Assembly: GCA_016183325.1 (NCBI GenBank)
Contig: JACPEV010000008.1
Span: forward strand, 472 to 64,471
DNA length: 64,000 nt
Direction: 5' to 3'
Origin: Candidatus Curtissbacteria bacterium
Lineage (GTDB): Bacteria; Patescibacteriota; Microgenomatia; Curtissbacterales; GWA2-41-24
Of the stretch, positions 200 through 61,637 are shown piece after piece. Each line of letters starts with the position of its first letter. Position 1 is the first letter of the stretch. The position numbers and the translations under genes are program-made. The notes beneath the pieces are model-generated. The model was given only the letters and a program-made list of their open reading frames with translations. It searched no databases and was not told the origin of the DNA.

Positions 200-205
200 C
201 AGTCT

Positions 206-311
206 ATAATTGTTCAAGAGTACCACGGGTTTTTACCCGTGGGTGAATTGAATAATTACGTACTCGCCGAAGGCGTAGCCTGAGGATACCACGACTGTAA
301 AGTCGTGGTAG
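206..311 (+). repeat. structured three-hairpin element, copy A; near-identical inverted copy at 13441-13549
   Basis: Three hairpins: ccacgggt-tttt-acccgtgg, cgcc-gaa-ggcg and ccacgact-gtaa-agtcgtgg (GNRA loop). An outer pairing joins taattgttc and gaataatta. The reverse complement matches 13441-13549 at about 95%. The element lies between the metallopeptidase gene and cutA. Confidence 0.5.
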
Positions 312-312
312 T

Positions 313-618
313 TCATTTTGTTTCAGAGATCAGCCAGTTAAGATAAGTCTCGCTGACTTTTGAGGATTTGATCGCAACAACTTCTGGAACTTCATAACCT
401 GAATGTTCTTGGATTATTTCTTTGATTTTTTCGAAATTAGAATCTTTCGTTTTCAAAATTATTAAAACTTCGTTGCTTTTTTCAATTTTCCCTTTCCACA
501 AGTAAGCTGATTTAACGGGGAACAAATTGTAACAGGCAATAAGACGTTCTTTTAACAACAGATCGCCGATTTTTCTAGCTGTTACCAATTTGTGGAAGGT
601 GGTAAAAATCAAAATCAT
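313..618 (-). CDS. cutA: divalent-cation tolerance protein CutA
   Basis: The 101-aa translation (…LIACYNLFPVKSAYLWKGKIEKSNEVLIILKTK…HSGYEVPEVVAIK…NWL) shows the CutA1 fold signature. Confidence 0.7.
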   Translation of the reverse strand: MILIFTTFHKLVTARKIGDLLLKERLIACYNLFPVKSAYLWKGKIEKSNEVLIILKTKDSNFEKIKEIIQEHSGYEVPEVVAIKSSKVSETYLNWLISETK

Positions 619-5467: not shown

Positions 5468-5593
5468 TCCCACAATTTCTTTGTGGCCTTTATTTTGGCG
5501 GGGTTAGTGTTGCCAATGGCAATGATCATAAAAACTTCACCTTTAGTTTATCAACAAAGATAGTAATTGCTCAGTCTCTTTGACAAAGTTTTA

Positions 5594-5672
5594 TTGTTCG
5601 AGCGTAGCCAAGTCTGACTTGGCGTAGTCGAGAACTTCTCGGCTCCCGAGTCTGACTCGGTCGCTCGAAGAA
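5594..5672. repeat. compound palindromic intergenic element (outer stem ttcgagcg/cgctcgaa; inner hairpins gccaag…cttggc, cgagaa…ttctcg, ctcgg…ccgag)
   Basis: Read directly. A related element occurs at 33371-33420, and a ttattgttcgaac start at 62476. Confidence 0.4.
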
Positions 5673-5708
5673 TATTGTGTCAAGGACTCTGAGTAGTTAC
5701 AGATTTAG

Positions 5709-13430: not shown

Positions 13431-13440
13431 TTTTCAAATG

Positions 13441-13549
13441 AACTACCACGACTTAACAGTCGTGGTATCCTCAGGCTACGCCTTCGGCGAGTACGTAATT
13501 GTTCAATTCACCCACGGGTAAAAACCCGTGGTACTTGCGAACAATTATA
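13441..13549 (-). repeat. structured three-hairpin element, copy B (inverted relative to copy A at 206-311)
   Basis: About 95% identical to the reverse complement of 206-311. It lies between the ftsZ stop and the cassette 1 start. Confidence 0.5.
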
Positions 13550-24406: not shown

Positions 24407-25420
24407 TTACGAACTCTTGAATGCGAAACGAATGATTTTGTCTAAGAGCTGCGGGTAGGAAATACCATCAGCTTGCGCGGCCTTGGGCAGAAGAGACATG
24501 GGGGTTAATCCTGGAATAGTATTAACTTCTAAAACACAGACGTTATTCCCTTTTATAATCATGTCTACCCTACCGAAACCTCTACATCCAAGAGATCTAT
24601 ATGCATCAAGCGCTGCTTTTTGAGCTATCTTGGTTAATTTTTGGCTGAGCCTGGCTGGGACGATTTCTTTAGTTTGATTGTCGAAGTATTTGGCATTGTA
24701 ATCAAAAAATTGGCGAGTTGGCACAATTTCAACTAAGGGCAAAGCCGTTGGATTATCGTTACCAAGGATTGATCCGGTGAGTTCTATGCCTTTTATATAT
24801 TCCTCGACCAGAGCAAAACGACTAAAGCTTAAGGCTATCTCTAGAGCTTGTTTTAACTCTTTTCTTTTATTCACTTTGGAAGATCCAATTGATGATCCCT
24901 GGTTAGACGGTTTAATAAAAAGAGGGAAAGAAAATTGTCTCAAGACTTTTTTAAGACTGTTACCTTTTTCGAAAACGAGATATCGCGGGGTTTCCAAGCC
25001 TGCCTGAGTAAACAATTTCCTTGAGTAAATTTTGTCCATTCCGAGAGCTGAGGCTAAAACCCCGGATCCAGTGTAAGGAATGTCTATCAATTCTAAAAAT
25101 CCTTGAATAGTTCCATCTTCCCCAAAGTGTCCATGCATAGCTATAAAAAACAATTGACAATTGACAATTGACAATTGACCAAAATGATAATTTACTTTAC
25201 CAAGAATAAAAGATTTTCCATCTTTTGAAATTACAATGGGTAAAACTTCGTATTTTTGGAGATCCAAATTCTTGACCACTTCCCTACCCGAAATCAGAGA
25301 GATTTCATGTTCGGGAGATTTGCCGCCCATTAAAACGGCAACTTTGATTTTGCCAGTTTTGTTATTTTGTTTCTTTGATTTTGGCTCCAATGGTTGAGAG
25401 CCTTTCGACGATGTTTTCAT
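24407..25420 (-). CDS. ddl: D-alanine--D-alanine ligase
   Basis: ATP-grasp signature, EHEISLISGREV, C-terminal NTIPG. It contains an in-frame (caattgaca)x4 insertion, see 25151-25180. Confidence 0.85.
   Translation of the reverse strand: MKTSSKGSQPLEPKSKKQNNKTGKIKVAVLMGGKSPEHEISLISGREVVKNLDLQKYEVLPIVISKDGKSFILGKVNYHFGQLSIVNCQLFFIAMHGHFGEDGTIQGFLELIDIPYTGSGVLASALGMDKIYSRKLFTQAGLETPRYLVFEKGNSLKKVLRQFSFPLFIKPSNQGSSIGSSKVNKRKELKQALEIALSFSRFALVEEYIKGIELTGSILGNDNPTALPLVEIVPTRQFFDYNAKYFDNQTKEIVPARLSQKLTKIAQKAALDAYRSLGCRGFGRVDMIIKGNNVCVLEVNTIPGLTPMSLLPKAAQADGISYPQLLDKIIRFAFKSS
25151..25180 (+). repeat. tandem nonamer (CAATTGACA)x3.3 inside the ddl coding sequence
   Basis: Read directly. In frame, it encodes …QLSIVNCQLFF… just before the conserved HG.FGEDG of Ddl. 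Confidence 0.6.
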
Positions 25421-26615
25421 ATCCCCTCTCTATTAATTCCGCTCTTTCTATGCGGCTTTCCCCTTGTGCAGCCAAAGCTGCTATAACAAGTGCAATGCCT
25501 GCCCTGATGTCTGGTGTGTCAAGTCTCTGGCTGTGAAGCTTAGTGGGGCCGTAAACTAAAACACGATGAGGATCAGCAATTTCTACTTTTGCGCCCATAG
25601 ATAGAAGTTTATCAACGAAAAACATACGTGATTCGTACATCCAATCATGAAGTATAGTGACACCTTCCGCTTGAGTTGCCAAAACAATCATTGGTGCCAT
25701 TAAGTCCGTTGGGAATCCGGGCCAAACATCAGTGACAACTTTTTCGATCGCAGTTAATTTGCCATCTCTGACTGTAAGAGTGTCTTGCTCGGTTTTGAAG
25801 TTAACACCAAATCTTGAAAGGGTTAAAAGGATCATATCTAGATCTTCTTCGATTACTGGAGAAATGTTGACTGTACCCTTAGTCACGGCAGCAAGAATCG
25901 CAAAAGTTCCGACTTCGATGTGATCAGGGCGGATAGTATGACGAGTTCCAGAAAGTTCATCAATACCCGTGATGGTAAGGATATTAGAACCAACCCCAGA
26001 TATAAGAGCTCCCATTTTAATTAAAAAATTACATAGATCGACAACATGCGGCTCTGAGGCAGCACGTTTAATAACAGTCTGCCCCTCTGCAAGACAAGCG
26101 GCCATGATGGCATTTTCGGTTGCGGTAACTGACGATTCCTGCAAAAAAATGTTTGCTCCCTTAAGTTTTCGAGCTTCCGCAACATAATAATCATCTTCCT
26201 TTTTAACAACTGCTCCGAGAGCTTCAAGCGCTTGAACATGGGTTTCAAGAGGACGTCTGCCGATTATATCTCCGCCAGGGTATCCCATTTTAACTTCACC
26301 AATCCTTGCTAACATCGGGCCAAGAAGAAGAACGGAGGCTCTTAACTTTTCTGTTAATTGGGAAGGGAATTGAGTCGCCTTGATTTTTTGGCAATCGACA
26401 GTTAAAGTCGATTTATCTTGAGTAATTTTTGCGCCGCAAGCTTCGAGCAGCTGAATCATCACGGAAACGTCGGAAATATTGGGAACGTTTTCTACTATAC
26501 AGGTGTCTTTGGTTAAAAGACAGGCAGTCATAATGGGAAGTACTGAGTTTTTATTACCAGCGATTTTGATGTCTCCTGAAAGCCTGTTTGCACCGATTAC
26601 TTCAAAGGTAGCCAT
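25362..26615 (-). CDS. murA: UDP-GlcNAc 1-carboxyvinyltransferase MurA
   Basis: 417 aa, EPSP-synthase-like fold, catalytic Cys region (…RPLE…). Confidence 0.9.
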   Translation of the reverse strand: MATFEVIGANRLSGDIKIAGNKNSVLPIMTACLLTKDTCIVENVPNISDVSVMIQLLEACGAKITQDKSTLTVDCQKIKATQFPSQLTEKLRASVLLLGPMLARIGEVKMGYPGGDIIGRRPLETHVQALEALGAVVKKEDDYYVAEARKLKGANIFLQESSVTATENAIMAACLAEGQTVIKRAASEPHVVDLCNFLIKMGALISGVGSNILTITGIDELSGTRHTIRPDHIEVGTFAILAAVTKGTVNISPVIEEDLDMILLTLSRFGVNFKTEQDTLTVRDGKLTAIEKVVTDVWPGFPTDLMAPMIVLATQAEGVTILHDWMYESRMFFVDKLLSMGAKVEIADPHRVLVYGPTKLHSQRLDTPDIRAGIALVIAALAAQGESRIERAELIERGYENIVERLSTIGAKIKETK

Positions 26616-26620
26616 TATAA

Positions 26621-26656
26621 AAAATTGAAAATTGAAAATTGAAAATTGAAAATTTC
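26621..26656 (+). repeat. tandem octamer (AAATTGAA)x4 in the murA-murB spacer
   Basis: Read directly. Related to the CAATTGACA repeats. Confidence 0.5.
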
Positions 26657-27755: not shown

Positions 27756-29843
27756 CTACGGAGTGTGGTTTTTGACTAGATCGAAAAGTTTGTAAACATC
27801 CCCGGCACCCATGGAAAGAATCACTCCAAAACCACTAAGGTGTTTAGATAGGTAACGAGCCGTTGCCTCCAATGATCCCGAGTATTGTGCCTTAGAACCG
27901 ACTGATCTGGCAAGTTTTTGGGCGAGTATGACTTTATCCCCTTTTTCCCTTGCCGGGTAGACATCGGTTATTAAGATTTGATCAACTTTGCTTTCTTTTA
28001 GGCTTTTGACGAAATCCGCAAAGAAAGTTTCGATTCTGGAAAAAGTATGGGGTTCAAAAACGAGAACCACTTTTTTATTTAGAGATTTTTCTTTTAGGGC
28101 ATTTGAGGTTTTGAGAATTGTGTATGGTTGTACAGCGTAATCATCGTAGACTCTAACTTGATTGATTGTCCCCTTATATTCCAATCGGCGACAGAGTCCA
28201 GAGAAAGATTCAACTGATTTTTTTGCAAGTTTTGGATCAATTTTAAGAATTTTAGCAACAGTCAGTGCGGCCTTTGCATTTTCTTTTCTAAAGTCGCCGA
28301 TTATGGAAAGTTTCAGTTCTGTGAAATCTTTGACCTTAACGACTCTTGTTTTTGCAGGGTCCGTCCCTTTTATTGGTGCTCTTGTCGACTCAATAAGCTC
28401 TTTTGTCGTAGGGACGGACCCTAAAATTATGGTCCCGCCTGGTTTAATATTTTCGATAAACTTTTTGTATGAGTTTATTACTGCCTCTCTTGTCTTGAAA
28501 AAATCTGGGTGATCCCAACCGATGTTGAGGATGACGGCGATGTCGGGATGATAATATAAAAAATTATCATTATATTCATCTGCTTCACAAATATAGTATT
28601 TTGACTTCCCTACTCTGAAGTTTGTCTCCCAACCGAGTACTTTGGCTCCTATTTCGCAAGTGGGATCAAGTCCTGCATCGATTAAAATTTGGGCAATCAT
28701 CGCCGTTGTGGTTGATTTACCATAGGCTCCGGCAACAGCGATGACAAATTTATTCTTTTGAAGATATTCGCCTTGGAATTTTTGCCAGCTAATAATAGGT
28801 ATTTTGCCCTTGCTGGCATAGACCAGCTCCAAATTTTGTGAATTAAATTTTTCCACTGCAGGAGAAATAACGAGAAGATCAATACCGATCAAGTGACTTC
28901 GGCTATGACCTTTGGCGATGTCGATTTTTAAATTTTGGGTATAAGGAGAAGCTGGATTTAAATCGCAACCGGTAACTTCATATCCATAACTCTTAGCAAT
29001 TGATAAAATTGCTGAAGCTCCGGCGCCAGCAGCGCCCATGATGTGGATCTTTAGCTTTTGAAGTTCAACCTCTTTGGCGCTTGAATCTCTGATCTGGCTT
29101 GTTGCGATAAGCTTATTGGCAATTTCGAGTTCTTCTGGGGTATTGATTCCATGCCATTCTGACGGATCTTCGAGTTTATAGGTTTGTACCTTATCGCCTT
29201 GATTTAGCGCAATGGAAATAAGGTCTGTTAGATATAATTCGCCAGTCACTGAAGAAGGCTTTATTTTTAGCAAATTATCACCAAGCCAGTTTTTATTAAA
29301 AAAATATAATCCGTCATTGACTTCCTTAATTTTTTTTTGAGTGGGAGAGGCGTCCTTTTCTTCAATGATTCCGAAAAGTCTGTCGTTTTTCCTAAGTATT
29401 CTGCCAAGTCCAAATGGGCTCTCTTTGTCTAAAGTGACAAATGTGATTTTCGACTTTGATCTCCGGTGGAATTCAAAAATTTTTTTAATCGTTTCAGGTT
29501 TGTAAAAGGCAGTATCGTCACCATACATAACGGCAACAATTTGAACATTTTTATCAGTTTTCCTGAGTCCAATCCTTGCGGCGTCGGCTGTTCCAGCAGG
29601 TGATTGTTGATTAGCAAAGGTGTACTGATTTCCGACCGTTTTTTTAATTTGAGATGAGTTATTTTGATTGATCACTATAATTATTTGACGGGGTCTCACT
29701 TTGTCTATAATTTCCAAAGTTCTTTTGAGTAGTGGTTTTTGGTCGACAGGGTGAAGAACCTTAGGCAAGGAAGACCTCATTCTTTTACCCTCTCCGGCTG
29801 CCAGAACTATGGCTGCAAAAGATTTCTGCGAATTATTGTTCAT
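27756..29843 (-). CDS. murC: bifunctional fusion: GlmU-type sugar-1-P uridylyltransferase N-domain + MurC UDP-MurNAc:L-Ala ligase
   Basis: Residues 1-240 read AIVLAAGEGKRMRSSLPKVLHPV…, the GlmU pyrophosphorylase domain without the LbH acetyltransferase. Residues ~260-695 carry the Mur-ligase motifs (GAAGAGASAI, AVAGAYGKSTTTAMI). Confidence 0.75.
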   Translation of the reverse strand: MNNNSQKSFAAIVLAAGEGKRMRSSLPKVLHPVDQKPLLKRTLEIIDKVRPRQIIIVINQNNSSQIKKTVGNQYTFANQQSPAGTADAARIGLRKTDKNVQIVAVMYGDDTAFYKPETIKKIFEFHRRSKSKITFVTLDKESPFGLGRILRKNDRLFGIIEEKDASPTQKKIKEVNDGLYFFNKNWLGDNLLKIKPSSVTGELYLTDLISIALNQGDKVQTYKLEDPSEWHGINTPEELEIANKLIATSQIRDSSAKEVELQKLKIHIMGAAGAGASAILSIAKSYGYEVTGCDLNPASPYTQNLKIDIAKGHSRSHLIGIDLLVISPAVEKFNSQNLELVYASKGKIPIISWQKFQGEYLQKNKFVIAVAGAYGKSTTTAMIAQILIDAGLDPTCEIGAKVLGWETNFRVGKSKYYICEADEYNDNFLYYHPDIAVILNIGWDHPDFFKTREAVINSYKKFIENIKPGGTIILGSVPTTKELIESTRAPIKGTDPAKTRVVKVKDFTELKLSIIGDFRKENAKAALTVAKILKIDPKLAKKSVESFSGLCRRLEYKGTINQVRVYDDYAVQPYTILKTSNALKEKSLNKKVVLVFEPHTFSRIETFFADFVKSLKESKVDQILITDVYPAREKGDKVILAQKLARSVGSKAQYSGSLEATARYLSKHLSGFGVILSMGAGDVYKLFDLVKNHTP

Positions 29844-31101: not shown

Positions 31102-31926
31102 TTATGGCCGTTTAACAGAAGATTGATAACTCAACCAGCTTGCCAAAAGATAAGGATCTTGGCCGCGATATTGATAGAAAGATCCGTAACTTAACCAAAC
31201 TTCGCTCCAAACAATATCTACCCCTTGAGATGTTTTCCATTGATTGGCTGACACATAGTCTTGCACTTCTAGAAAAGGATGGATTTTTTGATAATGACGA
31301 ATCCCATGGTAGAGATAAAGAATAAAGTCACGCTCGGATAAGTTTCCGTTAGCCAGATTATTTAAGTCTCCTTCTGAGATTAAAATGCGATCGTTTGATT
31401 CAGATTTACCCATCAAATTACCCACCATAACAGGTCGTTCAAGATATTGAGATGGAGCAATTTGCCAGATTTTAGCTGGTCCATGTTCTTGCTGATTGAA
31501 ATAATCCGCCGCTTCTCTGATTTGGGGTGCCGTCGACTTTTCCATATCTGAAAGAATACCTTGGAATACTTCTAGTTGCCTTTGAGAAGGAGCAAGATCC
31601 AGCTCGTTTGGCCCTATCCCTAGGTTGATTTGCGGACTAAAATCTCCAGGATTTGAAATCACTAGTTGGGAATTTGGCGAATCTTGCGTGAGTGAACTAA
31701 CGTGATTATCTGTCAACCGATTGTCGTTTTGTGGCTGGTTGAGGTTGACACGATCTCGATTCAAAGATGCCATTAGAAACATTACGGAACCAACAGCACC
31801 AGCAACTCCAACAACTACCCTCCTTTTAATTTCTCTCAAGGTCGAAAGAGCATGCTTACTAGGCCTTATGACTCGATAGGTGTCTGGGGCAATTTTTTGC
31901 AAAGGCAATGGTCTTTCTTCGCTCAC
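31102..31926 (-). CDS. hypothetical membrane-anchored protein inserted in the dcw cluster
   Basis: 274 aa, one N-terminal TM segment. No family recognised. Confidence 0.35.
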   Translation of the reverse strand: MSEERPLPLQKIAPDTYRVIRPSKHALSTLREIKRRVVVGVAGAVGSVMFLMASLNRDRVNLNQPQNDNRLTDNHVSSLTQDSPNSQLVISNPGDFSPQINLGIGPNELDLAPSQRQLEVFQGILSDMEKSTAPQIREAADYFNQQEHGPAKIWQIAPSQYLERPVMVGNLMGKSESNDRILISEGDLNNLANGNLSERDFILYLYHGIRHYQKIHPFLEVQDYVSANQWKTSQGVDIVWSEVWLSYGSFYQYRGQDPYLLASWLSYQSSVKRP

Positions 31927-33152: not shown

Positions 33153-33157
33153 AAGTT

Positions 33158-33268
33158 TGTATCTTCCCCTTACGGGCTTGGATGTGGCACCTTCTTTGAC
33201 TTTTTGAGACAAAGGGTTGCCAGACGGATCATTGGGCCAAGTCCCATACCGTCATTCTCGATACTTTG
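33158..33268 (-). ncRNA. SAM-I (S-box) riboswitch aptamer controlling metK
   Basis: The minus strand reads UAUCGAGAAUGACGG…GGGACUUGGCCCAAUGAUCCGUCUGGCAACC…AAGGUGCCACAUCCAAGC…GGGGAAGAUA. This matches the S-box core elements (GGGA-CUGGCCC-AUGA-CCC-GCAACC, AAGGUGC-AA-UCC, closing P1 UAUC/GAUA). The terminator follows. Confidence 0.7.
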
Positions 33269-34956
33269 CAAATATTAAAGTTCTAACTATTAATTATCCT
33301 ACAACAGTACCTCAATTTGTTGCAAGTATCTAAAAAAGGTAACTGTTCACCGTTACTGACACAACGCATATTGTTCGAGGCTGGAAGCCGAGAACTAAAC
33401 TTCTCGCTCACGCTCGAAGAGTAATAACGTGTCAGCGATTGTGAACTCTTACTAAAAAAAGAAAGACGTCTAATCAGCTGAGCGATGAATTTTTATGTTC
33501 AATCGGGATAGAAATTTAGCCGTGGAAATAATGAACATAATATTTATTCATAGATAAATATTATCTTTCTTGTTTCACGGCCTCTAAAAAGCTTGCCGGC
33601 AGTTAAATCTGAGAGATTTTTTGCAAGATTTTTTGCTAATAATGTCTAATGCCACGGCACTTCTTATTAGATCGCAAGGGGTAAGAATGCAAATCGAAAT
33701 AATAGGGGGGTTAATTTTAAAGAAGAGGTTAGAATTAGTAATTCTCTTTGACCTAGTGGCTTGTTTTTCTTAATATTTGCCGTAAAGGTTTACGCTAATG
33801 TGCATACTGGGACATGTTTGGCAGACACACTTGATGCTACTTGGATTTTGGACCCAGACAATTACACTTCAGAAGGAACACATGTAATACGCAATTTACG
33901 ACGGTTTTTATGGTAATGAACCTAACGTTCTTAATGCAGGTGATGCCAGTTTAGGAGCTGGTGAAGTAGCGCTAGGTTCTGGGGCAGGGCAAATAGAACC
34001 TGGGCAGTTCTCGGGACCCCATTTGCCCTTCGGGGATTGAGCAGTATAGGAAGTTTCACGAGAGGTGCAATACCAAATAACTGCGGCTTAGGGCAATAAA
34101 TAGCAAAGTCGACTAAAAAATTATTAATTTTTTGTAATTATCTTGAAGATCAAATAGGAGACGCCATATTTGGCGCTTTATGGTTTTGAGTGCTAAAGGC
34201 ATATTAAAATGAGTTGAGACCGTAATAACAGGCTTAATCATCTATAAATCTAATAAGGAACAAGTCTGGATGTAACAGAGAGTTGTTTTTATAGAAAACA
34301 GCAATTTAAATCTTTTAAAACAAACATCTACGCACAGGGCGGGGCTTAAATCCAATCTAATACTATTTTTTGATAATTTCAAGCCCCCAAAAAGCATCTC
34401 AAAAAGTGTCCAGACTTTGTTAAATTTGTTTAAAGATAAATTATTATAAAATTGGGCACAAGGATTATAAAAAGCAAATTTTTAAGTGCAAAAATCATAG
34501 AATATTTAAACATTAGTTATTGAAAATCTTGAAGATAGATGTTTTTTTGCAAGAAAAGATAACCTTTTGGTAGGAGGTCGTCTAAAGAACATACGGTTTA
34601 TCTTTTGGGATTGTGGGGGGGACAAAGTCGCAGGGAAATAGTCAACGTTCTTAAAGGCAAATTTGATCTGAGCTGTTAAGGGGCATGAGTCATTTGTGAC
34701 AACTAGTATTCTGCCTGTTTTTTTAATCTTGTTCTTATAGGTATGATTTCATCGTAGGTTTTGGTAAATTTTGCTCTTTTGTGAATTTTATCGAATTTAT
34801 GGAAGATTTTCTCGAATTCTAGCAATTATAGTTAAATATTTTTTATTAACAGTATTTAAGCAATTTTTGAACTTGATTCGCCATTTTCGTGAAAATTTAT
34901 GTATTTTCACTCGTTGCTTGTCAATAAGCACATCTTTGGTATGGAACAATTTTGAA

Positions 34957-35202
34957 TTAATGGCGTTTTAGCAGAGTTTTAAGGTTTAACCTTGGTGTAG
35001 CAAAAACAAATAGGTAGAGAATTTCTAGAATACCGAGAGAGTTGACTACAAGCAAGGCTACAAACCAATATTTTTGTCTGGCGGTTGCGGCATACCACAT
35101 GGCAATACCTTTTATTGAAAGCGCCCAAATAGTTAAAAGAATTATTAAAAGGGCATTAGCGGGATCTTTTGGAAGATTGAAATAGTTTGAGAAGAAGCTC
35201 AT
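34957..35202 (-). CDS. small two-TM membrane protein downstream of ftsI
   Basis: 81 aa with the conserved-looking motif WALSIKGIAMWYAA…KYWF. Family not recognised. Confidence 0.4.
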   Translation of the reverse strand: MSFFSNYFNLPKDPANALLIILLTIWALSIKGIAMWYAATARQKYWFVALLVVNSLGILEILYLFVFATPRLNLKTLLKRH

Positions 35203-35244: not shown

Positions 35245-36990
35245 CTAATTCTTGGAGGGAAGAATGCCGAAATAATTAAAGAGTTCTTTGGCAACTTCAA
35301 AGAAAGTGGGAGCCGCAGTTTCTGAGCCGAAGGGAGATGAAGTTGGTTCTGTGAAACGAACTAACATAACAAATCTAGGGTCATCGGCAGGAACGAATCC
35401 AACGAAGCTAGTAATTGTTTTATTGGGGTCATAATGTCCAGCCACAGGGATTTGAGCAGTTCCTGTTTTACCGGCGATTCTGAAACCTTTCGGGGCAAAA
35501 GCTTTTGCTTCACCATTTTGGACCGCATTGACCATCATTTCAGTCATTAGAGTAGCGGCTTGTGGCGAAATTACTTGTCTTATTTGATTAGGTTTGACTT
35601 CTTCAGTTTTTTTGCCGTCTTCGATTCTTGCGACGACTTTAGGAGTGATAAGTTTGCCGTGATTAGCAATAGTGGCGACTGCCTGAACCATTTGGATTGG
35701 AGTAACTGCTATGCCCTGGCCAAAAGAAGCTGTAGCAAGATCAATCGGTTTCCAATCTTTTTTGGCACGGACAAAACCTGTTGATTCTCCCTGAAGATCG
35801 ATTCCTGTTTCCTTGCCAAAACCAAACTTGGAGATATAATCGTAAAATTTGTCTACTTGAAGTTTAGCCGCAACATAGGTCATACCAACATTATCTGAAT
35901 GCTGGATGATTTCTGTCATAGTAGAATTTGGGTAGTATTTTTTATTCCAAGTGGAAATTTCAAAACCTCCAATCTGTCTTGCACCTGAACAATCCTCACA
36001 TCTGGTTTGAGGATCTACCAGTCCAAGATCAAGTGCAGCGGACATGGCTATTAACTTAAATGTAGATCCAGGTTCATATGTTTCTGCAACCGCTGGGTTT
36101 TTATAAAGGTTTTCATTATATTCAGAGTACAAAGCTGGCTGATAGGTCGGGCTGTTTGCCATTGCCAAAATGTGCCCATTTTTGGGGTCTGAGATGATAA
36201 TTGTGCCGCCTTTGGCATCATATTTTTCAATCGCAAGTCTTAATTTTTCCTCAACCATAAACTGAATTGATCTGTCAATCGTAAGGTGAAGCGAAGTTCC
36301 TTTTTGAGGCTGGTGGGGCCGAAATTTTCCAATCAGGATCGGGAACCCGAAAGGGTCGATAATTTTACCTGATTTACCAGGTTTACCTCTGAGTCTGTGA
36401 TCATAGTAACCTTCAAGGCCAAAATAGCCAGTATCTTCTCCAAATTTGTCCGAGCCTACAAACCCTATGACGTGGGCGGCTAGTGACGCCTCTGGGTAGA
36501 ATCGTTTATCATCTCGTTCAAATCCCAAACCGTTAATTTTAGTATCTTCGATTTTATATCTTGTTTGACGAGGTACTTTTCTGGCGAGTTGGATCCAGAA
36601 AAAGTTTTTGTTTGCTAGTTTAGCCGTTAAAGATTCTTCTTTGGTTTTGATCTCTTCTTCTTTTTGTTGCTTTTCATCAGCTGAGAGCCGGGCTTCCCTC
36701 GTTGAATATTTTTCTGATATTAGAAAGGGAGCAAGTATTCTCGCAAGATCTTTTGGGTCTTTATCAATTTCCCGGGGGTGTGCATAAAGGAGTGATGCAT
36801 TTTGATTGGTAACAATTGGAAAATTGTCAGCCGTATAAATTTCCCCACGAGTGGCTGGAAGAGTATCTGATGAAACATCTGCTCCAAAATTCCCCTCTAT
36901 TTTGGCAACAAATTGCCAGTAAAATAGTCTTAGAATTATAATAGCCGCTAATAAAAAAACACAGAGTTGGAATATGCGAAATCGGTCCAT
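35245..36990 (-). CDS. ftsI: class B penicillin-binding protein / FtsI transpeptidase
   Basis: Motifs STFK (PGSTFKL), SDN (HSDN) and KTGT (GKTGTAQ). N-terminal TM segment. 581 aa. Confidence 0.9.
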   Translation of the reverse strand: MDRFRIFQLCVFLLAAIIILRLFYWQFVAKIEGNFGADVSSDTLPATRGEIYTADNFPIVTNQNASLLYAHPREIDKDPKDLARILAPFLISEKYSTREARLSADEKQQKEEEIKTKEESLTAKLANKNFFWIQLARKVPRQTRYKIEDTKINGLGFERDDKRFYPEASLAAHVIGFVGSDKFGEDTGYFGLEGYYDHRLRGKPGKSGKIIDPFGFPILIGKFRPHQPQKGTSLHLTIDRSIQFMVEEKLRLAIEKYDAKGGTIIISDPKNGHILAMANSPTYQPALYSEYNENLYKNPAVAETYEPGSTFKLIAMSAALDLGLVDPQTRCEDCSGARQIGGFEISTWNKKYYPNSTMTEIIQHSDNVGMTYVAAKLQVDKFYDYISKFGFGKETGIDLQGESTGFVRAKKDWKPIDLATASFGQGIAVTPIQMVQAVATIANHGKLITPKVVARIEDGKKTEEVKPNQIRQVISPQAATLMTEMMVNAVQNGEAKAFAPKGFRIAGKTGTAQIPVAGHYDPNKTITSFVGFVPADDPRFVMLVRFTEPTSSPFGSETAAPTFFEVAKELFNYFGILPSKN

Positions 36991-38763: not shown

Positions 38764-38889
38764 TTTTTACCCTTACTCTCTACTCCCAGGCAGCTATGTG
38801 CAATTAGGAGTACCGATAATGATTCACCAAAAATCACCATCTATTTCCATTTTTCACCATGATTTGGTTGTTGTCAAGGGGGGAAAGTA

Positions 38890-38921
38890 AACAATTAACA
38901 ATTGACAGTTAACAATTGACT
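38890..38921. promoter_or_regulatory. three direct AACAATTRAC repeats at ~10-11-nt phasing upstream of mraZ (candidate MraZ operator)
   Basis: acaattaacaattgacagttaacaattgac lies about 130 nt upstream of the mraZ start. It is the same motif as the intragenic CAATTGACA repeats. Confidence 0.4.
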
Positions 38922-60349: not shown

Positions 60350-61637
60350 ACTTTGTGACTTGAAGTTTAAGTTTGCTGACGAACTCAGCTTGCGAAAATC
60401 TTAGAGTGTTATTTCTACAGGCTGTGCTATTCCATTTTACCTTACTTGCCCTAATAATTGCATCTTGAAGAGATATTGCGCTTTGGTCGCTGAAAAAAAG
60501 ACCTGTTTGCCCTTCAATTATGATTTCTCTAACTCCGCCTTTACTGTAAGCGATAACCGGCAGACCACAAGCTTGGGCCTCAACTGCGGCAATGCCAAAA
60601 TCTTCTTCCTGCGTTACGATTAACGCCTTGGCATTTTGATAAAGGTTGCGAAGTTGTTCCTTAGAAACAGCACCAAGAAACTCGATATCGTTTGTTATTG
60701 TTCGAGCTTGTCGAGAACTTACCTTATTCCCTTCTGTCATTCCGAACTTGTCTGATTTTATCGACCCGAATGGGTTTCGGAATCTTAGCGTAGATCCTGA
60801 AACGAGTTCAGGATGACGTGGCGTGGTATGGTAACTTCTCGACTCCCCTGCACCATACGGTGCAGGGTCGCTCAAAGAATAATTAAGTGAAGATGTATTC
60901 TTGGCTATATTTTGCAGCCTCCTCTCGTCCGGTCCGGTTCCCACAATTTTGAGGTTAACTTTAAGAACTTGGGCCGCTTTTATGGCAATTTCTACTTTTT
61001 TCCACTTCACCAGTCTCGTGACGATTAGAAAAAAATCATTTGACCGTTTACCTTTGGTCGCTTGGAAAAAATCTGTATCGACTGCGGGGTAAACCACTTC
61101 ACTATCTATACCGTAATGTTCTTTGACTAGTTGGGCGACATTTTTGGAATTGGCAATATAGCGATCTACTCTGGTTGAGGCAATTTTATCCCATTTCTCA
61201 AGCCATTTAAGAAGCGGAGAAAAAAGTATTCTTAAAATTTGGGGCAAATATTCCATTTTGGCTTTTTCACTCCAGAGGAATCTGGGAACGCTATTGATAT
61301 AGCAGATATGGAGAGTTTTAGGTTTGGTAATAATACCTTTGGCAAATCTGGTTGTTGATGAGATAACCAGATCAAAATCGTTGAAATTGAAACTCTCAAA
61401 GGCAATTGGGTAAAGCGGCAGGAGAAATTTATACCACTTTCGCGCAATAGCGTATTTTTGGAATATTTGCAGGAATGAGGGTCGGACCCTATTTCGGCTT
61501 ATTGTGGCGGGCAGTTTATTCCAATCAACAAGCGAGGTATAGATAGGAGCCTCGGACCAAATTTGAGCAATTGCGGCAAACAAATTCTCCGCTCCCCCAC
61601 TTTGGATGAAGTCATCGTGGACGAGGGCAATTTTCAT
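60333..61637 (-). CDS. GT4-family glycosyltransferase with an in-frame ~50-aa element-derived insertion
   Basis: N-terminal KIALVHDDF…GGAE and C-terminal EFLGAVSKEQL…EDFGIAAVEAQACGLPVIA are the GT4 cores. The insertion SDPAPYGAGESRSYHTTPRHPELVSGSTLRFRNPFGSIKSDKFGM lies between them. Confidence 0.75.
   Translation of the reverse strand: MKIALVHDDFIQSGGAENLFAAIAQIWSEAPIYTSLVDWNKLPATISRNRVRPSFLQIFQKYAIARKWYKFLLPLYPIAFESFNFNDFDLVISSTTRFAKGIITKPKTLHICYINSVPRFLWSEKAKMEYLPQILRILFSPLLKWLEKWDKIASTRVDRYIANSKNVAQLVKEHYGIDSEVVYPAVDTDFFQATKGKRSNDFFLIVTRLVKWKKVEIAIKAAQVLKVNLKIVGTGPDERRLQNIAKNTSSLNYSLSDPAPYGAGESRSYHTTPRHPELVSGSTLRFRNPFGSIKSDKFGMTEGNKVSSRQARTITNDIEFLGAVSKEQLRNLYQNAKALIVTQEEDFGIAAVEAQACGLPVIAYSKGGVREIIIEGQTGLFFSDQSAISLQDAIIRASKVKWNSTACRNNTLRFSQAEFVSKLKLQVTKYAKFS
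60736..60870. repeat. GC-rich hairpin element inserted in frame in the glycosyltransferase gene
   Basis: gtcattccgaa…ttcggaatc, cctgaaacgagttcagg and ctgcaccatacggtgcag. It is bounded by GTCATTCCG/AGGATGAC, as the 16952-17019 element is bounded by GTCATTCTG/CAGAATGAC. Confidence 0.5.

What the first reader, a model, noticed from the sequence alone, without database searches (positions are those of the whole stretch)
33270..34956. 1.7-kb ORF-free stretch in the middle of the division/cell-wall (dcw) cluster
Elsewhere in the window intergenic spacers are typically 30-250 nt, with many genes overlapping. Here about 1,690 nt between the metK riboswitch and the small gene after ftsI contain no ORF of at least 60 codons on either strand. 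The stretch is AT-rich with GC-rich structured patches. One is gggcaaat…atttgccc enclosing cccUUCGggg. Another is a copy of the ttgttcgag…ctcgaaga palindromic element at 33371-33420. There is at least one decayed coding fragment, about 45 codons reading …GFYGNEPNVLNAGDASLGAGEVALGSGAGQIEPGQFSGPHLPFGD* around 33880-34030. Candidates are a large structured ncRNA, remnants of a degraded insertion, or an unusual regulatory region. I found no RNase P, tmRNA or 6S signatures by eye.
Basis: seen in the sequence. Interest (0 to 1): 0.6.

Follow-up and report, generated by a model that had tools for sequence, protein, structure and literature searches.

The report
Decayed spacer, pseudogene, conserved noncoding promoter block
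The 1.7-kb gene-free stretch is real, but it is not one large RNA: it is a decaying, fast-changing spot in a Curtissbacteria cell-division cluster holding a broken small gene, an inserted palindromic repeat and one short conserved non-coding unit with its own promoter.

Summary
The ORF-free stretch (33268-34956) is real. It is the longest non-coding run in the window and is 100% identical in four independent assemblies.

The organism is a CPR bacterium, Candidatus Curtissbacteria. All neighbouring genes are on the - strand.

A single large structured RNA is not supported:
- Rfam finds only the flanking SAM riboswitch.
- Folding energies match shuffled controls across most of the region.
- Relatives have 130-1900 nt of unrelated content at this position.

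The stretch resolves into parts:
1. A weak, inferred metK promoter.
2. A 115-nt palindromic, MITE-like insertion (33338-33452). It is absent from a syntenic relative and has a second copy at 5563-5700.
3. A hairpin conserved with that relative (33519-33581).
4. A pseudogene on the + strand (33716-34099) of an uncharacterised small, apparently secreted, protein family. The start codon is lost, and there is an in-frame stop, a frameshift and a 22-nt insertion. After removing one base it is 47% identical over 75 aa to a relative's 79-aa ORF.
5. A conserved sigma-70-type promoter plus a non-coding block on the - strand (~34392-34150). Five Curtissbacteria lineages share it. It begins AAGCCCCGCCC. 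It is a candidate small RNA or leader.
6. About 550 nt of AT-rich DNA with no coding or homology signal, apart from one short hairpin (34889-34910) shared with the relative.

Overall this is ordinary genome decay, with one modestly interesting conserved element.

The parts
33156..33267 (-). SAM-I riboswitch leader of metK. It is the left boundary of the stretch, not part of it.
   Evidence: Rfam RF00162 at 44.7 bits against a gathering score of 44.4. Homologous riboswitches sit at the same place in L001, L056 and L125.
33296..33325 (-). Weak promoter-like site for the riboswitch-metK unit (TTGCAA, 18 nt, TAGGAT). This is inferred.
   Evidence: Read directly from the sequence. It scores 8 of 12, below the scan's cut-off of 9. 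The aligned L125 sequence has TTGAAT, 17 nt, TAACAT at the same place.
33338..33452 (.). 115-nt palindromic, MITE-like insertion element. It is flanked by the direct repeats CTAAAAAAG and CTAAAAAAAG, and on the - strand a U6 run follows it.
   Evidence: It folds as one long hairpin (-42.9 kcal/mol, z -3.2). It is absent from the syntenic L125 in the pairwise alignment. A related 138-nt copy lies at 5563-5700 (-81.5 kcal/mol, z -10.5). All Logan contigs break inside it, at 33424 and at 33366. The flanks are read.
33519..33581 (.). 63-nt AT-rich hairpin, conserved as a hairpin in L125.
   Evidence: z is -4.9 (- strand) and -5.4 (+ strand) in the window, and -3.0 and -2.1 in L125. The stem base CGTGRAA...TTTCACG is shared, while the interior differs but remains self-complementary.
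33716..34099 (+). Pseudogene of a small, apparently secreted, protein family with no Pfam or NCBIfam name. Lesions: start codon position now TTT (33716-33718), in-frame TGA (33749-33751), 1-nt frameshift near 33885-33890, and a 22-nt insertion (34015-34036). The last 20 codons (34040-34099) lie in another frame.
   Evidence: phmmer of 33888-34037 hits P0016 (E 4.3e-4, 59% over 41 aa). With one base removed, the reading is 47% identical to P0016 over 75 aa without gaps (E 4e-18). All six family members hit 33831-34037 by tblastn (E 5.6e-10 to 2e-5). Both halves match the L125 gene, in different frames. The lesions are read. This is the only positive + strand coding-score blip in the gap.
34015..34036 (+). 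22-nt insertion (GACCCCATTTGCCCTTCGGGGA) relative to L125.
   Evidence: Pairwise alignment with L125 and the sequence itself.
34150..34392 (-). Conserved non-coding block. It comprises a -35 TTGAAA (34382-34377), a -10 TAGATT (34359-34354), the conserved start AAGCCCCGCCCTGTGCGTAG (34347-34328), a conserved body to about 34184, and a terminator-like hairpin at 34176-34161. It is a candidate small RNA or leader.
   Evidence: An nhmmer profile finds it only in the window lineage, L001 (=L041, L065), L005, L056 and L125 (E 1e-42 to 1e-49). The -35 and extended -10 elements sit in register in all five. The promoter and terminator-like sites are flagged. There is no conserved ORF on either strand. 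No Rfam family matches.
34400..34956 (.). AT-rich spacer (26-36% GC) between DUF5652 and the block promoter, with no detectable coding, structure or homology signal. It includes a small hairpin, GTGAAAAT...ATTTTCAC, at 34889-34910 that is shared with L125.
   Evidence: Composition. Coding score negative. No Pfam match. No protein-level similarity to the L125 spacer. Hairpin.

Best explanation
The stretch is a composite, mostly decaying spacer at a fast-changing position of the Curtissbacteria division/cell-wall cluster, between DUF5652 and the metK/murE module. It is not one functional unit.

Reading along the - strand, the direction of the flanking genes:
1. The ftsI-DUF5652 operon ends.
2. 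About 550 nt of AT-rich DNA follows, with no recognisable function.
3. A conserved sigma-70-type promoter (-35 TTGnAA, 17-18 nt, extended -10 TGnTAnnnT) then fires a non-coding transcript. It starts at a C-rich conserved sequence (AAGCCCCGCCC..GCGUAG) and runs roughly 175-285 nt to a weak terminator-like hairpin. This is most likely an independent small RNA, less likely a leader.
4. That transcript is convergent with a + strand gene for a small, apparently secreted protein. In this genome the gene is dead: start lost, in-frame stop, frameshift, 22-nt insertion.
5. A conserved 63-nt hairpin follows.
6. A 115-nt palindromic, MITE-like element is inserted next. With its U-run it probably stops read-through.
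7. The separate promoter and SAM riboswitch of metK come last.

What is shown:
- absence of coding capacity
- homology and lesions of the pseudogene
- presence of the palindrome here and its absence in L125
- conservation of the promoter and block

What is inferred:
- that the promoter is active
- the transcript ends
- the terminator or insulator role of the hairpins
- any target of the candidate RNA
For: **Organism and context**
- FtsI is 61-69% identical to Candidatus Curtissbacteria genomes.
- The source's own name for the DUF5652 protein says Curtissbacteria.

**No large RNA**
- Rfam finds only the SAM riboswitch.
- The z-score scan is flat except at 33300-33450, 33500-33650 and 34150-34300.
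- The GC-rich patch has z -0.3 and -0.9.

**Variable position**
- Relatives carry nothing, a convergent 200-aa ORF, other ORFs, or metK at this position.
- None of those ORFs leaves a trace in the window.

**Pseudogene**
- After correcting one frameshift, the reading is 47% identical to P0016 over 75 aa (E 4e-18).
- All six family proteins match the region.
- The N-terminal and middle parts match the L125 gene in two different frames.

**Palindromic element**
- It forms a long hairpin.
- It is missing in L125.
- A family copy lies at 5563-5700, z -10.5.
- It is flanked by 9-10-nt direct repeats.
- Assemblies break inside it.

**Conserved block**
- It is present in five lineages whose FtsI proteins are only about 64-69% identical to the window's.
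- T-12, A-11 and T-7 of the -10 hexamer are invariant, exactly 6 nt before AAGC in all five. TG is present at -15/-14 in four of five, and TTGnAA at -35 in four of five.
- Stops occur in every frame, and there is a 1-nt indel inside the most conserved 21 nt, so it is not coding.
- L005 has a strong terminator (10-bp stem plus T-run) about 250-280 nt downstream of the start and before murE. This favours an independent RNA over a murE leader.
Against: - There are no expression data, so promoter activity and transcript ends are inferred from sequence alone.
- The predicted transcript is not more stable than shuffles in four lineages (z +0.3, -0.7, +0.05, -2.0).
- RNAalifold finds only 9-12 weak pairs, with almost no covariation.
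- The terminator-like hairpins differ between lineages and are weak in L001 and the window.
- The block is seen in only five lineages and is absent from other Curtissbacteria loci.
- The relative's own gene (L125) also looks imperfect. Its signal-peptide-like start and its last 20 codons lie in another frame. The last 20 codons nevertheless differ from the window mostly at synonymous third positions. So some form of expression of this gene cannot be excluded.
- About 550 nt (34400-34956) remain unexplained.
- The direct repeats flanking the palindrome are A-runs and could be chance. The second copy has at most a 4-nt repeat.
Confidence: 0.65

Rival explanations
1. The whole stretch, or most of it, encodes one large structured non-coding RNA of the OLE, GOLLD, ROOL or HEARO kind.
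For: It is long, ORF-free, inside an otherwise compact genome and flanked by essential genes. G exceeds C on the + strand.
Against: Rfam 15 gives no match even at E up to 10. Folding z-scores are near zero over most of the region on both strands. Relatives with the same flanking genes have only about 300 nt here (L001, L056). Only about 210 nt of the gap is alignable to them. Part of the region is demonstrably a protein-gene remnant.
Confidence: 0.03
2. The small + strand gene (33716-34099) is still functional. Either it is expressed through recoding, or the lesions are sequence errors. In that case the 'gap' contains a real gene.
For: The coding score of 33870-34020 reaches the level of real genes. 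The last 20 codons differ from L125 mainly at synonymous positions, and the stop codons align, TAA against TAG. The middle part has no internal stop.
Against: At least four independent lesions exist relative to L125: TTG to TTT at the start, an in-frame TGA, a 1-nt frameshift outside any homopolymer run, and a 22-nt insertion. The sequence is identical in four assemblies. The frame shifts differ in direction between the window and L125, so no conserved recoding site exists. There is no start codon in the middle frame.
Confidence: 0.1
3. The conserved block is not an RNA gene. It is instead a DNA-level regulatory site (an operator overlapping a promoter), or the promoter and leader of the downstream dcw/metK genes.
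For: The strongest conservation is a 21-nt GC-rich box immediately after the -10 element. The transcript has no significant structure. In L005 the next gene in the same direction is murE.
Against: L005 has a strong terminator between the block and murE. In L001, L056 and the window the next unit has its own riboswitch leader. In the window it lies about 1.08 kb away, beyond two long hairpins. Conservation continues for about 160 nt beyond the box.
Confidence: 0.2
4. The stretch is an assembly or binning artefact, that is, a chimeric join of two contigs at the palindrome.
For: Every Logan contig stops inside the palindromic element. The 57 nt from 33367 to 33423 are in none of them.
Against: Synteny across the join (small gene, hairpin, metK promoter, SAM riboswitch) is preserved in L125, which lacks the palindrome. 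L001 and L056 also place the block next to SAM-metK. The 1533 nt on the DUF5652 side are reproduced exactly in four samples.
Confidence: 0.02

Closest known systems
Large ornate bacterial ncRNAs (OLE RF01071, GOLLD, ROOL, HEARO, raiA; Rfam)
   Same: A long ORF-free stretch in a compact genome.
   Different: No covariance-model match. No excess folding stability. No conservation of the stretch as a unit. Part of it is a protein pseudogene.
Miniature inverted-repeat / repetitive extragenic palindromic elements (for example Neisseria Correia elements, pneumococcal RUP/BOX, enterobacterial ERIC; named from general knowledge)
   Same: The element is 115-138 nt and non-coding. It has terminal inverted repeats (GTAAnTnnTCA...) and folds into one long hairpin. 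It is intergenic, present in this genome but absent in a syntenic relative, and has short direct repeats at the flanks of the gap copy.
   Different: There is no sequence relation to those families. Only two full copies and two partial matches are seen in 64 kb. The target duplication is convincing for one copy only. No partner transposase has been identified.
Trans-acting small RNAs with an unpaired C-rich seed that pairs with G-rich ribosome-binding sites (for example RsaE/RoxS of Firmicutes; from general knowledge, a lead only)
   Same: Own sigma-70-type promoter, conserved C-rich 5' end (CCCCGCCC), an AU-rich body, a variable 3' end with a terminator-like hairpin, and a size of 175-285 nt.
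   Different: No Rfam match. No conserved secondary structure. No expression data. No target has been tested. The block is known from five Curtissbacteria lineages only.
SAM-I riboswitch (RF00162) upstream of metK
   Same: It forms the left boundary and meets the Rfam gathering score.
   Different: It lies outside the stretch and explains none of it.
Uncharacterised small protein family with the motif SDGFYGNEPN...PGSVAG..P.Q (P0016, P0018-P0022)
   Same: The window's 33785-34037 aligns to all members. The 14 columns invariant across all seven sequences (D47 G48 F49 Y50 G51 N52 P54 G65 G72 S73 A75 G76 P80 Q82) are kept.
   Different: The window copy is disrupted. Other members are 111-129 aa with signal-peptide-like N-termini, and one comes from a contig with 64% GC. 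The family has no Pfam, NCBIfam or PDB relative.

Membership tests
Any Rfam RNA family (including large ornate RNAs, RNase P, tmRNA, 6S, SRP) | A covariance-model score at or above the family's gathering threshold. | tested here: not met
   Only RF00162 (SAM) passes. At E up to 10 the gap yields only chance miRNA and sRNA hairpin hits far below threshold. ARAGORN finds no tRNA or tmRNA in the window. The block regions of L125 and L056 give nothing.
Large structured ncRNA (generic) | Folding energy clearly below dinucleotide shuffles along its length, and conservation with covariation. | tested here: not met
   150-nt windows mostly have z between -1.5 and +1.7 on both strands. Homology to relatives is limited to about 210 nt.
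Pseudogene of a protein family | Significant protein-level homology to ORFs called elsewhere. | tested here: met
   E 4e-18 and 47% over 75 aa to P0016 after removing one base. Six family members hit the region. The profile search recovers the family.
Pseudogene of a protein family | A disrupted reading frame or lost start relative to the homologue. | tested here: met
   The N-terminal and middle parts lie in different frames. There is a TGA at 33749, TTT replaces the homologue's TTG start, and there is a 22-nt insertion.
Pseudogene of a protein family | The lesions are real and not sequencing errors. | tested here: inconclusive
   The sequence is identical in four Logan assemblies. All are short-read assemblies of one project, and the raw reads were not inspected.
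MITE / repetitive palindromic element | Terminal inverted repeats, folding into a long hairpin, and no coding capacity. | tested here: met
   The two copies share their outer arms and differ in the interior.
MITE / repetitive palindromic element | Multiple copies in the genome. | tested here: inconclusive
   Two full copies and two short partial matches are seen in the 64-kb window. The rest of the genome could not be searched.
MITE / repetitive palindromic element | Presence/absence polymorphism with a target-site duplication. | tested here: inconclusive
   The element is absent from syntenic L125. CTAAAAAAG and CTAAAAAAAG flank the gap copy. The 5563-5700 copy has at most AGAT.
Sigma-70-type promoter | -35 and -10 hexamers at 16-18 nt spacing, conserved in register among homologues. 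| tested here: met
   Window: TTGAAA-17-TAGATT. TAnnnT lies exactly 6 nt before AAGC in all five lineages. TG at -15/-14 occurs in four, and TTGnAA in four.
Sigma-70-type promoter | An experimentally mapped transcription start. | not testable with these tools
   No transcriptome data are available.
Bacterial small regulatory RNA | A discrete transcript with its own promoter and terminator. | tested here: inconclusive
   The promoter criterion is met (above). Terminator-like hairpins are present, but they vary in position and strength: strong in L005, moderate in L056 and L125, weak in the window and L001.
Bacterial small regulatory RNA | Non-coding, and conserved beyond neutral expectation. 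| tested here: met
   Stops occur in all frames of the four homologues examined (the window, L001, L005 and L056), and a 1-nt indel lies inside the most conserved box. The profile matches at E 1e-42 to 1e-49 in lineages whose FtsI is about 64-69% identical to the window's.
Replication origin | A cluster of DnaA boxes and a switch of gene orientation. | tested here: not met
   No TTATCCACA-like box (one mismatch allowed) occurs in 33268-34956. Genes on both sides are on the - strand.

The most novel reading that the evidence does not exclude
The conserved block (window 34392-34150, - strand) encodes a previously undescribed, weakly structured small RNA specific to Curtissbacteria. It sits inside the division/cell-wall cluster, and its conserved C-rich 5' end (AAGCCCCGCCC) pairs with G-rich ribosome-binding sites. 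One candidate is the AGGGGGG site of the convergent small secreted-protein gene. The RNA would thereby regulate translation in an organism group for which almost no regulatory RNAs are known.
Probability: 0.2. Interest if true: 0.45.

Novelty: new member of a known kind. Interest (0 to 1): 0.28.

Why it matters
- **Main value: a correction.** A conspicuous 1.7-kb 'empty' stretch in a very compact CPR genome is not a hidden giant RNA. It is the visible result of gene turnover: a dying accessory gene, an inserted palindromic repeat and unconstrained spacer. This shows that even reduced Patescibacteria genomes carry recent pseudogenes and small mobile repeats inside an essential gene cluster.
- **Conserved promoter and non-coding block.** This is a concrete, cheaply testable candidate for a regulatory RNA or control region in Curtissbacteria, where experimental knowledge is nearly absent.
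- **SDGFYGNEPN small-protein family.** It has no annotation anywhere, and this locus adds a decayed member to it.

Tried and rejected
- **Rfam.** Searched at gathering threshold and at E up to 10, on the window and on relatives. Only SAM was found.
- **tRNA/tmRNA scan.** None.
- **Origin of replication.** No DnaA boxes in the gap and no strand switch.
- **Tandem or interspersed repeat arrays (CRISPR- or TIGR-like).** Only a 12-nt unit present twice and a weak 10-nt array. The TIGR idea came from a title seen. There are no repeats and no associated protein, so it was rejected.
- **Pfam on all six stop-masked frames.** Nothing.
- **Remnants of the ORFs that relatives carry at this position** (the convergent 200-aa ORF and others). 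No tblastn trace.
- **Word-indexed search with a first hand-joined version of the fragment.** Nothing. The exhaustive phmmer search was needed to find the family.
- **Similarity to phages or plasmids.** None.
- **The core motif in viral contigs.** One chance hit in an unrelated GC-rich contig.
- **The block as a small ORF.** The apparent ...TQRGGA-stop ending on the + strand is only nucleotide conservation. Frames differ because of a 1-nt indel, and no start codon exists.
- **The block as a structured RNA.** Folded on both strands with 4 and 5 sequences. Only weak helices were found.
- **Closer relatives through DUF5652.** The next proteins are 48-68% identical over 47-81% of the query, so there are no intermediate genomes.
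- **A genome-wide GTGAAA...TTTCAC hairpin family.** Only the one copy in the gap.
- **Literature searches.** 'DUF5652' and 'CPR non-coding RNA' gave nothing relevant.
Full report
**1. Observation**

The window comes from a CPR bacterium. FtsI (35245-36990, - strand) is 61-69% identical to proteins of Candidatus Curtissbacteria genomes. One source names the neighbouring 81-aa protein 'hypothetical protein HYU92_02755 [Candidatus Curtissbacteria bacterium]'.

The gene order on the - strand is mraZ, rsmH, ftsL, ftsI, DUF5652 (35202-34957), the gap, SAM riboswitch (33267-33156; 44.7 bits against a gathering score of 44.4), metK, a 274-aa unknown protein, then murE.

- No ORF wholly inside the gap exceeds 51 aa.
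- One 66-codon TTG ORF (34771-34971, +) overlaps the right edge. It has a negative coding score.
- Every frame has 27-42 stops.
- A phase-specific Markov score trained on the window's genes is positive over metK, DUF5652 and ftsI. It is negative over the gap except for one + strand blip.
- This is the longest stretch without a coding-like ORF in the window.
- Four Logan assemblies reproduce 1533 nt of it exactly.

**2. Not a large structured RNA**

- Rfam gives only the SAM riboswitch, at gathering threshold and at E up to 10.
- ARAGORN finds nothing.
- A 150-nt sliding fold compared with dinucleotide shuffles is flat on both strands. The exceptions are 33300-33450, 33500-33650 and 34150-34300.
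- There are no DnaA boxes, no repeat arrays and no similarity to phages or plasmids.

**3. The position is a hot spot of gene turnover**

I examined 115 related loci from genomes and metagenomes. The usual Curtissbacteria order is ftsI-DUF5652-murE. The spacer ranges from about 130 nt to 1.4 kb. Depending on the lineage it holds nothing, a convergent roughly 200-aa ORF, other unrelated ORFs, or metK.

None of those ORFs left a trace in the window. Only three other lineages gave DNA similarity to the gap beyond the riboswitch:
- L001 (identical to L041 and L065)
- L005
- L056

That similarity covers only about 210 nt.

**4. A syntenic relative and a pseudogene**

A word-indexed search found nothing. 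An exhaustive phmmer search of 1.84 billion representatives found a 79-aa protein, P0016 (E 4.3e-4, 59% over 41 aa), plus three repetitive low-complexity proteins.

The N-terminal half of P0016 matches the other + frame of the window (ORF 33761-33916). Removing one base anywhere between 33885 and 33894 gives a continuous reading. With 33886 or 33887 removed, that reading aligns to P0016 over 75 residues without gaps, at 47% identity and E 4e-18.

A profile search recovered five more members of 111-129 aa. They have signal-peptide-like N-termini and the shared motif SDGFYGNEPN...PGSVAG..P.Q. All six proteins hit window 33831-34037 by tblastn (E 5.6e-10 to 2e-5). The family has no Pfam, NCBIfam or PDB relative.

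The contig encoding P0016 is L125 (1851 nt, 36% GC). It is syntenic with the window and carries, in order: SAM riboswitch, the small gene, the conserved block, then the ftsI 3' end. It has no DUF5652.

Aligned to L125, the window copy shows these lesions:
- TTT where L125 has its upstream TTG start behind a GGGGGA ribosome-binding site
- an in-frame TGA at 33749-33751
- the 1-nt frameshift
- a 22-nt insertion (34015-34036), which creates the GGGCAAAT/ATTTGCCC and CCC-UUCG-GGG hairpin

The last 20 codons (34040-34099) lie in yet another frame. Even so, they differ from L125 at seven synonymous third positions, and the stop codons align. The decay therefore appears recent. L125's own copy is not cleanly in one frame either.

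I call the window copy a pseudogene, with about 0.8 confidence.

**5. The palindromic element**

Positions 33338-33452 fold into one long hairpin (-42.9 kcal/mol, z -3.2).
- The element is missing from L125 in an otherwise colinear alignment.
- It is flanked by CTAAAAAAG and CTAAAAAAAG.
- On the - strand a U6 run follows it, just before the metK promoter region.
- A 138-nt relative with the same outer arms (GTAAnTGnTCA...TGACA...TTATTGTTCGAG / CTCGAAG...GTGTCA...TGA..TTAC) lies at 5563-5700 and is an almost perfect hairpin (-81.5 kcal/mol, z -10.5).
- Shorter matches occur at 60698 and 62486.
- All Logan contigs end at 33424 on the DUF5652 side or start at 33366 on the metK side. This is the behaviour expected of a repeated or hairpin element in a de Bruijn graph.

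This fits a MITE-like or REP-like element.

**6. The conserved block**

A roughly 210-nt segment (window 34392-34184, - strand) is found by a profile only in five lineages: the window, L125, L001, L005 and L056 (E 1e-42 to 1e-49). It is always on the strand of ftsI. In L001, L005 and L056 it begins 40-60 nt after DUF5652.

It is not coding. All frames of the four homologues examined have stops, and the most conserved 21 nt contain a 1-nt indel.

Anchoring the sequences on the invariant AAGC(C/T)CCGCCC shows a promoter in register:
- TAnnnT lies exactly 6 nt upstream in all five: TAGATT, TAAAGT, TAACTT, TATTTT and TAATGT.
- TG is present at -15/-14 in four of five.
- TTGnAA lies 17-18 nt further upstream in four of five.

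Transcription would therefore start at about 34347 with a C-rich sequence.

Terminator-like hairpins occur downstream at varying distances:
- L005: a strong terminator (10-bp stem plus T-run) about 250-280 nt downstream of the start and before murE
- L056: about 205-220 nt downstream
- L125: about 160-175 nt downstream
- the window: a weak one at 34176-34161

The predicted RNA is not significantly structured (z +0.3 to -2.0). Consensus folds are weak. No Rfam family matches.

The best reading is an independent, weakly structured small RNA. The alternative is a promoter and operator or a leader. No expression data exist.

**7. The remainder**

- A 63-nt hairpin at 33519-33581 is kept as a hairpin in L125. 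The stem base is shared and the interior differs.
- A short hairpin at 34889-34910 downstream of DUF5652 is also shared.
- The 550 nt from 34400 to 34956 have 26-36% GC. They show no coding or homology signal, and no folding signal apart from that short hairpin.

**8. Verdict**

- 'decayed remnants' is supported and now specified
- 'regulatory region' is partly supported
- 'large structured ncRNA' is not supported

The object as a whole is ordinary genome decay at a variable locus. The conserved promoter and block is a modest, testable novelty: a candidate RNA not present in Rfam.

Scores: interest 0.28; novelty 'new member of a known kind'.

Noticed in passing
window 205-318 and 13436-13549: A 114-nt inverted repeat pair, 96% complementary and 13.1 kb apart, itself containing hairpins (CCACGGGTTTTTACCCGTGG). 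It could bracket an invertible or mobile segment.
   Followed up: no
window 5563-5700: Second, longer copy of the palindromic element: a near-perfect 138-nt hairpin (-81.5 kcal/mol, z -10.5) between two + strand ORFs.
   Followed up: partly
window about 38806-38845 (- strand, upstream of mraZ): Four direct repeats at exact 10-nt spacing, ATGGTGAAAA | ATGGAAATAG | ATGGTGATTT | TTGGTGAATC. The architecture resembles an MraZ operator array; the resemblance is recalled from general knowledge and was not tested.
   Followed up: no
window 25151-25179, 26622-26655, 38888-38920: Tandem 7-nt repeats (TCAATTG / TTCAATT, 3.5-4.5 copies) just upstream of - strand gene starts within the cell-wall cluster. 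At about 26615-26622 a TATAAT overlaps the ATG, which suggests a leaderless mRNA.
   Followed up: no
window 27756-29843 (-): A 695-aa protein that fuses an N-terminal nucleotidyl-transferase domain to a complete Mur-ligase module.
   Followed up: no
window 6290, 9235, 11042, 13616; and 45528, 47523, 48866, 49726: Two families of 53-61-nt direct repeats (60-85% identity). The second family lies at the low-coordinate (3') ends of four consecutive - strand genes, which suggests paralogues with a shared C-terminal segment.
   Followed up: no
L125 1070-1586: This syntenic relative has no DUF5652 gene between ftsI and the conserved block. It has another 517 nt without any called gene.
   Followed up: partly
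L125 449-808: The relative's small gene is called as a 79-aa TTG-initiated ORF. A signal-peptide-like stretch upstream would join it in frame if a T6 run had one more T. Its conserved last 20 codons are in a +1 frame. The gene may therefore be decaying there too, or be phase-variable.
   Followed up: partly
window 31102-31926 (-): A 274-aa ORF between metK and murE with no Pfam or NCBIfam match. It has no tblastn match in the 35 related genome loci searched, including L001 (metK directly followed by murE).
   Followed up: no
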